A stretch of DNA of 64,000 bases from a virus. The notes under the pieces were generated by a model. It had not been told where the DNA came from, made no database searches, and worked only from the letters and a program-made list of their open reading frames with translations. The stretch spans positions 43,128 through 107,127 of the IMG/VR virus record IMGVR_UViG_3300042296_000700. One strand, given 5' to 3'. Numbering within the stretch: the first letter of the stretch is position 1; each line of letters opens with the position of its first letter. Shown here piece after piece: positions 54,369-57,505 of this stretch. The translations under genes and the position numbers were made by a program.

Positions 54369-54516
54369 TACTCCTGCTTTCGTTTAGTAGTTTTACAGCG
54401 AGGATGGAACGATTCCCCGACGGAACCTTTTTAGACTCTCGTTTACCCACTTGATTGCGGGCGTATAAGTGTCTACCATCCAGCAACAGAGAGTATAACA
54501 CCTCTCTGTGTATTTG

Positions 54517-54717
54517 TCAATCCATCTCAAAGATGAGATGCTCGCTATTGACATCACGAGCGATACCAGTAACCCATGCAGGATTTTCTGTGGGGTTTAC
54601 GCCACCGTCACCTCTTGCAATGAGTACTTCAACTTTGTCAATCCCATTTGTGATTGCATCGTTAAAGTTTTCTGCTTCAACATCTGTTGTGACCATTACT
54701 GTTACTCGGTATTTCAT
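54517..54717 (-). CDS. Hypothetical protein
   Basis: MKYRVTV...VEAEN..DA; GGAGG RBS. Confidence 0.55.
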   Translation of the reverse strand: MKYRVTVMVTTDVEAENFNDAITNGIDKVEVLIARGDGGVNPTENPAWVTGIARDVNSEHLIFEMD

Positions 54718-55049
54718 ATTGCTACCTCCGTGAACTTGCCGTACTGTTGTACGAACTCTGTTGGTGTGTGTGTGAACCCTTTCTCCCATGCGGATTCTCC
54801 GCACGCTTGTAGGAGAGCGAGTCTTGCGATGGCAAGAGAGACAGTTGGATAATGTTCCAACCATTCGTTGGCAACAAAGTCAGTCCACCACAGATAACCG
54901 CTGTCGTCTGCGCCTTGTGAAACTATTGCTTTCGCATCGTCGTTGATGATGACAGAGAACAGTTCTTTTGCTGATTCCCAGTCATGTTGGTTTGGTGTGT
55001 AATCGGGGTGTGCCGATTCAATGAGTTCTTGTAAGTTTGTCATGTTCAT
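54714..55049 (-). CDS. Hypothetical protein
   Basis: Coupled ORF. Confidence 0.55.
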   Translation of the reverse strand: MNMTNLQELIESAHPDYTPNQHDWESAKELFSVIINDDAKAIVSQGADDSGYLWWTDFVANEWLEHYPTVSLAIARLALLQACGESAWEKGFTHTPTEFVQQYGKFTEVAI

Positions 55050-55282
55050 CCCATTTCTTCTAGTAGTTCGTCTAATGCTTCGTAGTCAAGTAAGTCGCTG
55101 AGCCACGGAACACCATCGGGTGTACCTGCTGAGACATATACGAGATAGTTTGTTGCGAAGTCTCGGTAGTTCACTTCTTTGCCGTAGGTCATAACCATTC
55201 GGTATAGTTGTTCGTCGTTAGCGAGCCACAGGTTTACATTCCATGTCTCTCGGTTTTTCCAACCGTTGTAAGTCGTTTCCAT
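55046..55282 (-). CDS. Conserved small phage early protein
   Basis: YNGWKNRETWNVNLW..NDE.LY, TPDGV.W. Confidence 0.7.
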   Translation of the reverse strand: METTYNGWKNRETWNVNLWLANDEQLYRMVMTYGKEVNYRDFATNYLVYVSAGTPDGVPWLSDLLDYEALDELLEEMG

Positions 55283-55359
55283 GGTTTTCCTTTTCTAGTA
55301 GATTTATTTATTACAGCACCCACTTTACAGTGGGGGTGTGACATGGTTATATGCCACCG

Positions 55360-55803
55360 TTAGATGTTGCGATTGTTGTAGATGTGAACGAGCCATTCCA
55401 TCAGGTTGGACTTGTATCCATCCCACACGCTGTCGCCACTCATAATCCAGTCAGAGAGGTCTTCTAAGTCTGTCTTGGTTGCTTCAGTCTGAATCCACTG
55501 GAGTGCTTTCCACTCTTTGTCTTCTTCTGTGTAAACTCCGCCCTCAACGAGCATTTGTGTTTCGTCTTTGATTGAGAGTGGAGAGTACGAGACTGCCCAC
55601 TTATATTTGTTGTCGCCCCAACCAGTGTCTCTGCCCATCTGTTCAATGGAGATTCCGCAACGCTCGCCGATATCGGAGAGTTCGCTGTCGCTCGCTTCTT
55701 CAAGTAGGTGAGAGTCGTAGTCGTTTAAGTCGTCTGTTTCCACAATGACGCAACCCTCAAGGTTGAGCACTGTTCCAGTTGTTTTGTCAATGATGAGTTT
55801 CAT
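55360..55803 (-). CDS. Hypothetical acidic protein
   Basis: Own promoter and RBS. Confidence 0.6.
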   Translation of the reverse strand: MKLIIDKTTGTVLNLEGCVIVETDDLNDYDSHLLEEASDSELSDIGERCGISIEQMGRDTGWGDNKYKWAVSYSPLSIKDETQMLVEGGVYTEEDKEWKALQWIQTEATKTDLEDLSDWIMSGDSVWDGYKSNLMEWLVHIYNNRNI

Positions 55804-55857
55804 GGTTTACCTTTCTAGTAAATACTTTAAGGAGTGTAACATACTCCCAGCCGTGTG

Positions 55858-56151
55858 TCAAATAGACACACCAGTTGATATTTGTGAAACGAGTTCGTAG
55901 TCCTCGCACAAGTCAATAGCCCATTCTGAGTGAGCAATGTTCCATGCGTTGGCGTAGTCCGTGTTAATCGCCTTAAGGAGACTGGCTAGTTCCTCGTGGG
56001 TCATGTGATAGAAGTACTCCTCGTGGAACTCGTTTTGCGTATCAGGGTTCCAAGTGTCTCCATCAAATGCGATGCGGACAACCTCAAATGAGTCTTGGTC
56101 GCCATCCCAAAAGATTTGGCACTCTATTTCTTTGTAGTGTTTAAGTTCCAT
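55858..56151 (-). CDS. Hypothetical acidic protein
   Basis: Own promoter and RBS. Confidence 0.6.
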   Translation of the reverse strand: MELKHYKEIECQIFWDGDQDSFEVVRIAFDGDTWNPDTQNEFHEEYFYHMTHEELASLLKAINTDYANAWNIAHSEWAIDLCEDYELVSQISTGVSI

Positions 56152-56210
56152 TGTCGTTTACCTTTCTAGTAAGTTGAAATGAGTATAACACATGGGTGTT
56201 ATATTTGCAA

Positions 56211-56378
56211 CTATTGGTTGCTTTCCTCTATAACGACTGGAGAGTCCGAAAGTGTGCTCTCGCCCTTGAGTTGAGCGATAGTCGCAAGAATCTCGTCGCA
56301 CTGGCGGTTGATATCCGCACAGATAGCGAGAGCCTTAGCCCGCTCGTCAAGTGTTAGTAGTTCAATGATGGGGTTCAT
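56211..56378 (-). CDS. Small hypothetical protein
   Basis: Start placed at MNPIIELL after AAAGGA RBS. Confidence 0.5.
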   Translation of the reverse strand: MNPIIELLTLDERAKALAICADINRQCDEILATIAQLKGESTLSDSPVVIEESNQ

Positions 56379-56675
56379 ATCTGTTCCTTTGTTTAGTAGG
56401 TATGCCCCCATTATATCAAGGGGGTGTAACACAGTAACGATTGGTAGCCGTCAAAGTGTGCGCTCGTAAGCAAGACACAATCTAGCATAGATTTATCCGA
56501 ATGTCAAGTTATGTAGAAAATATAACCAGAACCAGAAGACCAGATTCTGGATGCGCCCGAGCGCGAGCCCCGTACACAAAACACAGCACAACAGCCCCGT
56601 ATCGCTGCGGCGGCAGCGGGACTAGTAAGGTAAGTCAAGAAATGTTCCCAGAGTTCACGCATGGCGGGGCTAACA

Positions 56676-56689
56676 CGAACTAGTGTTCG
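56676..56689. promoter_or_regulatory. LexA (SOS/Cheo) box
   Basis: Perfect CGAAC-TAGT-GTTCG ending 3 nt before ATG 56693, overlapping candidate -10 TAGTGT. Confidence 0.7.
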
Positions 56690-56692
56690 CTC

Positions 56693-57094
56693 ATGAACGT
56701 TTCTCGCATTGACAACGCCACTCGCTGGCAAACACATCTGACTGCTTTACAACAGTTTGCTACCCGCACAGGTTCAGCCCGTGTACCCGCTTCCCATACA
56801 GAAGTCGTGGACGGACGCAACATTGCTCTCGGAGCATGGGTTGGGTACATGAGGCAACGCAACCGTGCTGGCTTGCTGTCGGCAGAACGCAAGTCAAACC
56901 TTGAGGCAATCTCAGGTTGGACTTGGGGTCCGCTTCGCCCAGGGCCAGCAACGAACACCGAACGAGATGAGAACATTCTCGTGCTTCGCTCTGAAGGTCT
57001 AAGCCTTGAGAAAATCGCAATGAAGTTCGGTATCTCCCGTCAGCGAGTTCATCAGATTGCTCGCTCTCACGCCTCATCAGATAACAATGGCTGA
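56693..57094 (+). CDS. Helicase-associated (HA) domain fused to sigma-70 region-4-like HTH
   Basis: W......L..F..RTG...VP.....LG.WV..MR.....G.LS.ER...LE.I..W.W; R.EGLSLEKIA.KFGISRQRVHQI. Confidence 0.8.
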   Translation: MNVSRIDNATRWQTHLTALQQFATRTGSARVPASHTEVVDGRNIALGAWVGYMRQRNRAGLLSAERKSNLEAISGWTWGPLRPGPATNTERDENILVLRSEGLSLEKIAMKFGISRQRVHQIARSHASSDNNG

Positions 57095-57383
57095 CAACGA
57101 CCAAAGTAAGTGGCGACTCGTAGACCCGAACTGGCGCATACCAGTTCATGAGTCAGAGATTCTCGCACCACCAACACCGCCTGATAAAGTTCCATTCATG
57201 ATTGCTCTCATGAAAATGCTTTGGGGATTCCTAACGCTTATTTCTTTTTGTGCTTTTGGTGTGTTTATAATCGCTCAGTTGTTGGAACTAGAACAAGTTG
57301 GTTACCGTGACGCTGTAGGAATCTCAGTAGTCCTTATCTTTCTGCGCGCGATAGACAAAACAACTTTCGGCAAAGTTTCGTAG
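57087..57383 (+). CDS. Two-TM membrane protein
   Basis: Hydrophobic segments; coupled to the regulator. Confidence 0.55.
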   Translation: MADNDQSKWRLVDPNWRIPVHESEILAPPTPPDKVPFMIALMKMLWGFLTLISFCAFGVFIIAQLLELEQVGYRDAVGISVVLIFLRAIDKTTFGKVS

Positions 57384-57385
57384 AT

Positions 57386-57420
57386 ACAAAACAACCCCTC
57401 AGGCTTTCGCCGTTGGGGTT
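57386..57420 (-). terminator. Intrinsic terminator
   Basis: Minus strand AACCCC-AAC-GGC-GAAA-GCC-UGA-GGGGUU then GUUUUGU. Confidence 0.6.
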
Positions 57421-57505
57421 ATCTCGGAGCAGATGAAGGGTGAAAGGAGTAAAGTCCCTCACCTCTCTATTGGTCGTACGCCGACTAAACGCCGTACCAG
57501 CAGGG
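57386..57505 (-). ncRNA. Predicted 3'-UTR structured RNA with anti-SD loop
   Basis: Three consecutive hairpins with loops UUUAGU, ACUUUACUCCUUUCA and GAAA; a G-U pair is valid only on the minus strand. Confidence 0.45.

What the first reader, a model, noticed from the sequence alone, without database searches (positions are those of the whole stretch)
57386..57505. Predicted phage sRNA with a 16S anti-SD mimic loop and a loop complementary to the early-gene leader motif
Seen: the 120 nt after the MoxR-VWA stop (minus strand) fold into three hairpins. Hairpin 1 presents GUUUAGUCGG (loop UUUAGU). Hairpin 2 is a 12-bp stem with a G-U pair that works only on this strand and a 15-nt loop ACUUUACUCCUUUCA. 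Hairpin 3 is a GAAA-capped terminator. GUUUAGUCGG is the exact complement of CCGACUAAAC in the leaders of the MoxR gene (about 59728-59737) and the 61082 gene (about 61106-61115). Its GUUUAG(U) core also matches the CUAAAC/ACUAAAC leaders at 54.38, 56.39, 63.10 and 63.48 kb. Established: actinobacterial 16S rRNA ends ...ACCUCCUUUCU, so CUCCUUUC is an anti-SD copy. Inference: a 3'-UTR-derived RNA that shuts off the phage's own early mRNAs, or host mRNAs, by two-loop recognition of leader plus SD. Caveat: the loop order is not colinear with the target, so pairing would need a double loop-kissing geometry.
Basis: partly seen in the sequence, partly recalled or inferred. Interest (0 to 1): 0.85.

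Follow-up and report, generated by a model that had tools for sequence, protein, structure and literature searches.

The report
Anti-RBS hairpins ending a phage operon
The untranslated tail of a two-gene message in an uncultured freshwater phage of actinobacteria folds into hairpins whose open loops are complementary to the ribosome-landing region at the front of the same message. Related phages change both sides together, so the tail most likely turns down translation of its own operon, though this is untested.

Summary
The 120 nt after the 494-aa gene fold into three hairpins (z -3.9), plus a fourth across the stop codon. The exact 10-mer complement of two leaders sits in hairpin 1.

Hairpin 2 (H2) is the important part. 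It recurs after this gene in a wide family of freshwater phages, with covarying stems (93.6% paired, 8 of 14 pairs doubly changed). Its pyrimidine loop is more than a generic anti-SD. In relatives it matches 7-11 nt of the ribosome-binding site of moxR, the first gene of the same operon, and loop and site change together (own versus swapped pairs, p<5e-5; best match in its locus in 8 lineages).

In this window's own clade the H2-moxR match is only 6 nt. Hairpin 1 (H1) adds 10 nt on the leader just upstream of the SD. H1 is weaker evidence: it is confined to a subclade, its loop differs in 83-84% relatives, and there is only one covariation event.

[quoted passage not shown] No transcript ends are known.

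The scan has noted anti-SD loop hairpins in other phages before. The verdict is a new variant of a known kind.

The parts
58990..59709 (-). moxR-like AAA+ ATPase gene (239 aa), first gene of the operon
   Evidence: Pfam AAA_5 PF07728, E 1.2e-15. Its stop overlaps the start of the next gene.
57506..58990 (-). 494-aa gene: HExxH-bearing helical N-terminal part, disordered linker, VWA-like C-terminal domain with DGSGSM (MIDAS-type) motif
   Evidence: No Pfam hit. Invariant HEM.H and DGSGSM columns. AlphaFold model pLDDT 64.6. Foldseek best matches are integrin I-domains, CLCA1 VWA and NorD, E about 6e-3.
59755..59783 (-). Promoter-like TTGACA-17 nt-TACACT of the moxR operon; predicted 5' UTR about 39 nt
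   Evidence: Read from the sequence. The same layout stands upstream of the other leaders.
59728..59737 (-). Leader motif CCGACUAAAC, 19-28 nt before the moxR ATG; exact complement of the hairpin 1 loop
   Evidence: Duplex with the H1 loop is -16.6 kcal/mol and falls in the 0.2-0.6 percentile of background windows.
59717..59722 (-). moxR Shine-Dalgarno AAAGGA, complementary to UCCUUU in the hairpin 2 loop (6 nt)
   Evidence: H2 loop duplex -6.7 kcal/mol.
61106..61115 (-). Second exact copy of CCGACUAAAC, in the leader of the 132-aa gene 60684-61082
57507..57523 (-). Hairpin 0: G-rich stem with GAAAA loop; its 3' arm contains the stop codon
   Evidence: A hairpin of the same kind follows the stop in the 58-64% relatives.
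57476..57497 (-). Hairpin 1: 5-bp outer stem plus 2 weak inner pairs, presenting GUUUAGUCGG (57481-57490)
   Evidence: Stems covary and the loop consensus is UU(A/G)GUC in the subclade.
57427..57467 (-). Hairpin 2: 12-bp stem with a 16-nt loop ACUUUACUCCUUUCAC (57440-57455); the family-wide conserved anti-RBS hairpin
   Evidence: The loop co-varies with the moxR RBS in relatives.
57387..57426 (-). Hairpin 3: terminator-like stem with an inner GGC-GAAA-GCC cap and a GUUUUGU tail
   Evidence: A strong hairpin sits in the same place in relatives. The simple consensus scan does not flag it because of its internal loop.
57213..57383 (+). Converging small membrane-like ORF, the end of the only plus-strand operon of the region; not part of the element but bounds it

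Best explanation
The 120 nt are the structured 3' UTR of the phage's moxR-VWA operon mRNA. It holds a hairpin across the stop codon, two display hairpins (H1, H2) and a terminator.

H2 is an ancient element of this phage family. It is a stable stem that holds open a pyrimidine-rich loop complementary to a ribosome-binding region of the phage. In most lineages that region belongs to moxR, the first gene of the same operon.

The most likely mechanism is RNA-RNA pairing between the 3' UTR loop(s) and the 5' translation-initiation region. The mRNA could fold back on itself once transcription is complete. Alternatively the tail could act on other copies, possibly after being cut off. Either way the Shine-Dalgarno region is covered and translation falls, and a double-stranded RNase substrate may form. 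This is how the icaR mRNA of Staphylococcus aureus works.

In this window's clade the contact would be split in two:
- The H1 loop pairs with CCGACUAAAC, 19-28 nt before the moxR ATG (10 bp).
- The H2 loop pairs with the SD AAAGGA (6 bp).

Shown here: the fold, its conservation, the stem covariation and the loop-RBS covariation. Inferred: that pairing happens in the cell, its sign (repression), and whether it is cis or trans.
For: **Fold.** Three to four hairpins, z -3.9 to -4.0.

**H2 recurs after the homologous gene.**
- It is seen in loci from two collections.
- A covariance model built on one clade finds exactly one hit per locus, at that place, in two clades.
- 93.6% of cells are paired, 8 of 14 pairs change on both sides, 0 of 500 shuffles reach this, and slid controls give 48-66%.
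- Pairing is better on the sense strand (93.6% against 89.0%).
- In several clades the next gene runs in the same direction, so the sense strand is the one transcribed.

**Anti-SD words are enriched in these loops.** They occur in 71 of 287 hairpins within 160 nt after the stop. Elsewhere on that strand the figure is 38 of 5757. By strict criteria 18 of 48 protein clusters are positive.

**The loop co-varies with the moxR RBS.**
- Own pairs average 7.43 Watson-Crick nt and -11.1 kcal/mol. Swapped pairs average 5.59 nt and -7.7 kcal/mol. Permutation p<5e-5 over 14 cluster representatives.
- The same holds over 45 loop-leader combinations, p<2e-4.
- The moxR RBS is the best match in its locus in L039 (11 nt), L040 (10), L053 (9), L063 (11), L064, L072 and L135 (8 each) and L116 (7). 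It ranks second or third in six more.
- L039 and L040 differ by a compensatory change: loop U to A with leader A to U.

**H1 in this window.** There are 10-nt matches to two leaders. The duplex is -16.6 kcal/mol. Own-operon leaders fit their own H1 loops better than swapped ones (7.0 against 5.7, p 0.029).

**Precedent.** icaR (PMC3868564).
Against: - In this window the H2-moxR SD match is only 6 nt and ranks 9 of 22 ribosome sites. The specific H2 evidence therefore comes from relatives.
- The H1 loop reads GAAUAGU in the 83-84% relatives although their moxR leader keeps CCGACUAAAC.
- H1 is replaced by an unrelated A/U-rich hairpin in the 53-57% clade.
- The H1-leader covariation is essentially one split between two groups.
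- A cofold of leader plus 3' UTR gains only -6.6 kcal/mol, the 21st percentile of background windows. That model cannot represent loop contacts that keep the stem.
- The order of the two loops is not colinear with the target.
- In the L026-type clade the loop fits the RBS of many early genes, not moxR alone.
- No transcript ends or abundance are known.
Confidence: 0.6

Rival explanations
1. A released 3'-UTR-derived small RNA acts in trans as a general anti-SD regulator. Its targets would be many phage early mRNAs and/or host mRNAs with strong Shine-Dalgarno sites, like the C-rich-loop sRNAs of Gram-positive bacteria. It would not be a self-regulator of one operon.
For: - In the L026-type clade the loop matches 8-10 nt of the RBS of four to six genes per 8-kb locus.
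- In the 83% relative, four RBSs match 9 nt.
- The 16-nt loop is identical in lineages whose moxR RBSs differ, which suggests another, conserved target.
- The 6C sRNA of actinobacteria works through pyrimidine-rich loops without a chaperone (PMC6486639).
- The H1 loop also fits several ACUAAAC leaders.
Against: - In the more distant clades the moxR RBS is the single best match.
- No promoter-like site lies upstream of the element.
- No discrete RNA is shown.
- The host is unknown, so no host target could be tested.
Confidence: 0.2
2. The hairpins are only structural. They would be a compound terminator and 3'-end protection between two converging operons, and the loop similarities to leader and SD would be chance or base composition.
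For: - The element lies between converging genes and ends in a terminator-like hairpin.
- A 6-nt match to a 50-nt window occurs in about 10% of background windows.
- The net cofold gain is unremarkable.
Against: - The loop sequence is conserved while the stems change.
- Anti-SD words are enriched about 37-fold in these loops.
- Loop and RBS co-vary, p<5e-5.
- Loops of 13-18 nt are unusual for terminators.
- In several clades the hairpin has no U-tract and stands inside a co-directional gene row.
Confidence: 0.1
3. The loop is a mimic of the 16S rRNA 3' tail that binds a protein. It could be a decoy for a nuclease that cuts the anti-SD (MazF-mt3 type, U^CCUU), or a binding site for a ribosomal or assembly protein.
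For: - Some loops carry 10-11 nt identical to the 16S tail: CACCUCCUUUC in L106; ACCUCCUUUC in L070, L138 and L139.
- The window's loop contains UCCUU.
- MazF-mt3 cuts that word, including in the 16S anti-SD (PMC5408214).
Against: - A mimic of a fixed host sequence should stay constant. Here the loops vary (CCCUUUC, GCCUUUC, GUCCUCCU, UUGCUCC) and track the phage's own RBS.
- No toxin or partner protein was identified.
Confidence: 0.05
4. The functional strand is the plus strand. There the hairpin 2 loop reads as a Shine-Dalgarno-like GAAAGGAG, serving a small ORF, an antisense RNA or a GGA-binding protein.
For: - In unrelated phages the reverse complement of the 16-mer is a ribosome site followed by ATG.
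- The converging plus-strand operon could read into the region.
Against: - No start codon follows on the plus strand.
- The 44-aa plus-strand ORF loses its frame between two indels in the 83% relative (read).
- The plus-strand fold is weaker and pairing is lower on that strand.
- In other clades all neighbouring genes share the sense strand.
Confidence: 0.03

Closest known systems
icaR mRNA 5'-3' UTR interaction of Staphylococcus aureus (PMC3868564)
   Same: A pyrimidine-rich anti-SD motif in the 3' UTR is complementary to the SD region of the same mRNA. In icaR this blocks initiation and creates an RNase III substrate. Here the 3' UTR loop matches 7-11 nt of the first gene's RBS in relatives.
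   Different: - This is a phage operon of two genes with about 2.3 kb between the partners.
- The motif is displayed in the loop of a long, covarying hairpin.
- It is conserved and co-varying across a whole virus family.
- In this window the contact is split over two loops.
- Nothing has been tested experimentally.
6C sRNA of Actinobacteria (Rfam RF01066; PMC6486639), and RsaE/RoxS of Bacillota (recalled from memory)
   Same: Pyrimidine-rich hairpin loops pair with purine-rich ribosome sites, without a chaperone in the case of 6C. The host phylum is the same as this phage's probable host.
   Different: - No Rfam match at the gathering score or at E up to 10.
- The loop is CU-rich (CUCCUUUC), not a C-run.
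- It is part of an mRNA 3' UTR, not a gene with its own promoter.
- Its target appears to be the phage's own operon.
Two-site loop recognition by regulatory RNAs (OxyS-fhlA; RNAIII-rot/coa), recalled from memory and not checked here
   Same: Two separate hairpin loops each make a short helix with two sites of one mRNA start region. This is what H1 plus H2 would have to do.
   Different: Those are independent trans-acting RNAs with experimentally mapped contacts. Here the second contact (H1) rests on one lineage-specific 10-nt match and weak covariation.
Anti-SD loop hairpins noted earlier in this scan in other phages (e1-5931112, e1-5706915, e1-5785799; AI notes)
   Same: Hairpins at the ends of phage transcripts whose loops copy the 16S tail, kept while the stems change.
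   Different: Those notes, as summarised, do not report a loop that co-varies with the RBS of the first gene of the same operon. They concern other genes (ssb, sliding clamp) and other phage groups, and I did not re-test them.

Membership tests
icaR-type 5'-3' UTR anti-SD pairing | Anti-SD-like pyrimidine motif located in the 3' UTR of the mRNA | tested here: met
   The loop CUCCUUUC lies 51-66 nt after the stop, upstream of the terminator.
icaR-type 5'-3' UTR anti-SD pairing | Complementarity to the SD region of the same mRNA beyond a generic SD match | tested here: inconclusive
   Met in relatives: 7-11 nt, best in the locus in 8 lineages, co-varying with p<5e-5. In this window H2 gives only 6 nt (rank 9 of 22), and H1 adds 10 nt just upstream of the SD.
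icaR-type 5'-3' UTR anti-SD pairing | Pairing shown to inhibit initiation or trigger RNase III cleavage | not testable with these tools
   Needs toeprinting, reporter and RNase assays.
6C / C-rich-loop sRNA families (Rfam) | Match to the family covariance model | tested here: not met
   No family reaches its gathering score in the window. Only chance-level hits to unrelated families appear at E up to 10.
6C / C-rich-loop sRNA families (Rfam) | Pyrimidine-rich seed displayed in hairpin loops | tested here: met
   The 16-nt open loop holds CUCCUUUC and is conserved in relatives.
3'-UTR-derived small RNA | A discrete stable RNA sharing the mRNA's terminator | tested here: inconclusive
   A terminator-like hairpin is present. 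Metatranscriptome contigs cover the whole 7 kb evenly and one spans the intergenic region, so no ends can be read.
Intrinsic terminator | G+C-rich hairpin directly followed by a U-run | tested here: inconclusive
   Hairpin 3 is followed by GUUUUGU. The consensus scan finds none because the stem has an internal loop. Relatives have a strong hairpin at the same place.
Y RNA with Ro60-like (TROVE + VWA) partner | Neighbouring protein has the TROVE ring, and the RNA has a closing 5'/3' stem | tested here: not met
   No TROVE hit. The model shows a helical HExxH domain plus a VWA fold only. The RNA has no closing stem.

The most novel reading that the evidence does not exclude
The element is an end-of-transcript switch. 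The last-made part of an operon mRNA closes the ribosome site of its first gene, so each message is translated only while it is still being transcribed. Since the scan has met anti-SD loop hairpins at transcript ends in several unrelated phage groups, this may be a general phage way of metering early or middle gene output.
Probability: 0.3. Interest if true: 0.8.

Novelty: new variant of a known kind. Interest (0 to 1): 0.68.

Why it matters
Long-range pairing between the two ends of a bacterial mRNA is known from very few cases, and I know of none in phages. This family offers natural compensatory variants: more than ten different loop/ribosome-site pairs. That gives unusually strong comparative support and ready-made mutants for testing.

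It would show how a phage limits production of a MoxR/VWA pair of unknown role. It would also give a simple, portable design for self-limiting gene expression in actinobacteria.

Tried and rejected
- **Phage GenBank records:** no DNA or protein match.
- **Rfam:** nothing. **tRNA/tmRNA:** none.
- **RNAalifold on a plain MAFFT alignment:** no structure, because the alignment was not structural. A covariance-model alignment replaced it.
- **16-mer loop scan of viral contigs:** mostly chance hits that are ordinary ribosome sites on the other strand.
- **Metatranscriptome runs:** contigs of one freshwater run cover 55-62 kb evenly and one bridges the intergenic region. This shows neither transcription nor RNA ends.
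- **The look-up of encoding contigs:** The 59-94% relatives seen only in the protein search could therefore not be read, which limits the hairpin 1 test.
- **Genome collection:** one MAG contig and no host information.
- **Ro60/Y-RNA analogy:** rejected.
- **Plus-strand 44-aa ORF:** rejected because its frame is not kept in the 83% relative.
- **Consensus scan:** flags neither a promoter nor hairpin 3.
- **Second promoter class:** no TGTNACACC box lies between 57.5 and 59.7 kb on the minus strand.
- a script with typed leader sequences was not run. It was redone from references.

Full report
**What is in the sequence**

The stop codon of the 494-aa gene is at 57506-57508 on the minus strand. 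The following 120 nt fold into three hairpins at -48.3 kcal/mol, z -3.92. The plus strand folds less well, z -1.89. Folding from 57535 adds a fourth hairpin whose 3' arm holds the stop codon, z -4.0.

- **Hairpin 1 (H1, 57476-57497)** presents GUUUAGUCGG.
- **Hairpin 2 (H2, 57427-57467)** has a 12-bp stem with a bulge and two G-U pairs. Its 16-nt loop is ACUUUACUCCUUUCAC.
- **Hairpin 3 (57387-57426)** is GAAA-capped and followed by GUUUUGU.

The 10-mer CCGACTAAAC occurs exactly three times: once as the complement of the H1 loop, and twice on the minus strand at 59728 and 61106. Those two copies, and ACTAAAC or CTAAAC in four other places, lie in 5' leaders between sigma-70-like promoters and the Shine-Dalgarno (SD) site. 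A further ACTAAAC at 63007 is inside an ORF. As a bare word ACTAAAC is not enriched. Its position and strand are what is non-random.

**Context**

- The window is the last 64 kb of a 107-kb IMG/VR phage record.
- The genome carries two WhiB genes, so the host is an actinobacterium. Earlier notes call it a freshwater actinophage.
- The upstream gene is a MoxR-type AAA+ ATPase.
- The 494-aa protein has no Pfam hit. It keeps an HExxH motif and a DGSGSM motif, and its C-terminal domain models as a VWA fold.
- A small plus-strand ORF converges on the element.
- No promoter-like site of either class stands upstream of the element inside the gene. The element is therefore a 3' UTR, not an obvious separate gene.
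- Rfam and ARAGORN find nothing.

**Hairpin 2 is a conserved RNA element**

Homologues of the 494-aa protein were found in 76 viral and 58 metagenomic loci at 29-100% identity. Reading the DNA after each stop codon shows, in lineage after lineage, a strong hairpin with a pyrimidine-rich loop containing CCUUUC, CUCCUU or similar.

- A covariance model built from four sequences of one clade finds one hit per locus, at that place, in that clade and in the window's clade. It finds no second copy in the window.
- On that alignment 93.6% of cells pair and 8 of 14 pairs change on both sides. No shuffle reaches this, and slid partners give 48-66%.
- Pairing is better on the sense strand.
- Six-letter pieces of ACCUCCUUUC occur in the loops of 71 of 287 hairpins within 160 nt after the stop. 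Elsewhere on the same strand the figure is 38 of 5757.
- 18 of 48 protein clusters are positive by strict criteria. I judge about 26 positive when bulged stems and variant motifs are read by eye.
- In several clades the next gene runs in the same direction without a terminator. The transcribed strand is therefore the one that shows the pyrimidine loop.
- The 107-kb genome has only this one convincing copy.

**The loop tracks the ribosome site of moxR**

The loops differ between lineages in a way a plain copy of the 16S tail would not. Comparing each loop with the 30 nt before the moxR start gives long matches in the same phage:

| Locus | Watson-Crick match |
|---|---|
| L039, L063 | 11 nt |
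| L040 | 10 nt |
| L052, L053, L028 | 9 nt |
| L049, L054, L064, L072, L078, L135 | 8 nt |

These matches include letters flanking the SD core that differ between lineages.

- Own pairs beat swapped pairs: 7.43 against 5.59 nt, and -11.1 against -7.7 kcal/mol. Permutation p is below 5e-5 for 14 cluster representatives and below 2e-4 for 45 combinations.
- Within a locus, the moxR site is the best of 8-15 ribosome sites in eight lineages and second or third in six more.
- L039 and L040, close relatives, differ by a U-to-A change in the loop matched by an A-to-U change in the leader.
- In the L026-type clade the loop fits the shared RBS AAGGAGAA(A/G) of several early genes, not moxR alone.
- In the 83% relative of the window, four ribosome sites match 9 nt.

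**The window's own clade**

Here the H2 loop is identical over 16 nt in lineages down to 63% protein identity. It matches the moxR SD over only 5-6 nt, which is no better than other sites.

This clade has an extra hairpin, H1, between the stop and H2. Its stems covary and its loop consensus is UU(A/G)GUC.

- In the window the loop matches the moxR leader over 10 nt at -28 to -19. That is 5 nt upstream of the SD piece that fits H2.
- In the 83-84% relatives the loop reads GAAUAGU while the leader is unchanged, leaving 7 nt.
- In the 61-64% clade the loop is UUGGUC, and a GACCAA word stands in the moxR or VWA leader.
- Own-operon leaders fit better than swapped ones (p 0.029). This reflects one split between two groups.
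- The 53-57% clade has a different A/U-rich hairpin in this position, with variable loops.
- A cofold model gives an unremarkable net gain, though it cannot model loop contacts that keep the stem.

H1 pairing is therefore plausible but not established.

**Mechanism and rivals**

The best reading is pairing of the 3' UTR loop(s) with the operon's own translation start region. This could be fold-back of the finished mRNA, or action on other copies, and it would lower translation.

- A broader trans-acting role on other phage or host messages is the main rival. It may hold in some clades.
- A purely structural role is contradicted by the loop-RBS covariation.
- A protein decoy that imitates the 16S tail fits a few loops, but not their variation in step with the phage's own sites. 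MazF-mt3 cuts UCCUU, including the 16S anti-SD.
- A plus-strand function is unlikely.

**Known relatives**

- The nearest documented mechanism is the icaR 5'-3' UTR interaction.
- The 6C sRNA of actinobacteria uses C-rich loops on ribosome sites, but the Rfam model does not match.
- The scan has recorded anti-SD loop hairpins in other phages. I did not re-test them.

**Limits**

- There are no expression data. Metatranscriptome contigs cover the region evenly and are uninformative.
- The host genome is unknown.

Noticed in passing
window 54382-63481 (minus strand); loci L023-L160: A leader word of the type CUACUA / ACUAAAC / CUAGAAAGG stands directly upstream of the SD of most early genes. It does so here and across the whole phage family, at a fixed distance from the SD but a variable distance from the -10 box. 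This looks like an mRNA-level signal (translation enhancer or protein site) in its own right.
   Followed up: partly
window 57507-57523 (minus strand): A G-rich hairpin with a GAAAA loop includes the stop codon of the 494-aa gene. Relatives have a GGGG-GNRA-CCCC-type hairpin at or just after the stop.
   Followed up: partly
window 57506-58990 (minus strand): The so-called VWA protein has an invariant HExxH motif in a helical N-terminal domain, a roughly 120-residue disordered linker and a MIDAS-bearing VWA fold. This suggests a metalloprotease-VWA partner for the MoxR ATPase. It has no Pfam family.
   Followed up: partly
L047 456-500, 6586-6625, 7889-7920: This relative lacks the hairpin after the VWA gene, where a GAAA-capped terminator and a promoter stand instead. 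It has three other hairpins with pyrimidine-rich loops elsewhere in the 8.5-kb locus.
   Followed up: no
L062 6565-6610 (minus strand): The covariance model hits a similar hairpin (loop ACUUUCCCCUUUCC) on the opposite strand 1.6 kb beyond the VWA gene. No hit lies directly after the gene, so the element may have moved to another transcript end.
   Followed up: no
window 57355-57378 (minus strand): A second small hairpin with a GUUUUGU tail lies inside the 3' end of the converging plus-strand ORF.
   Followed up: no
window 57470-57475 (minus strand): The word GACCAA, which is the leader partner of the UUGGUC loops in the 61-64% clade, sits in the linker between H1 and H2 in the window and its 83% relatives.
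   Followed up: no
window 55000-62000: A freshwater metatranscriptome library holds contigs 95-99% identical to the whole stretch, so this phage or a close relative was present in that sample. It is not clear whether as RNA or as carried-over DNA.
   Followed up: partly
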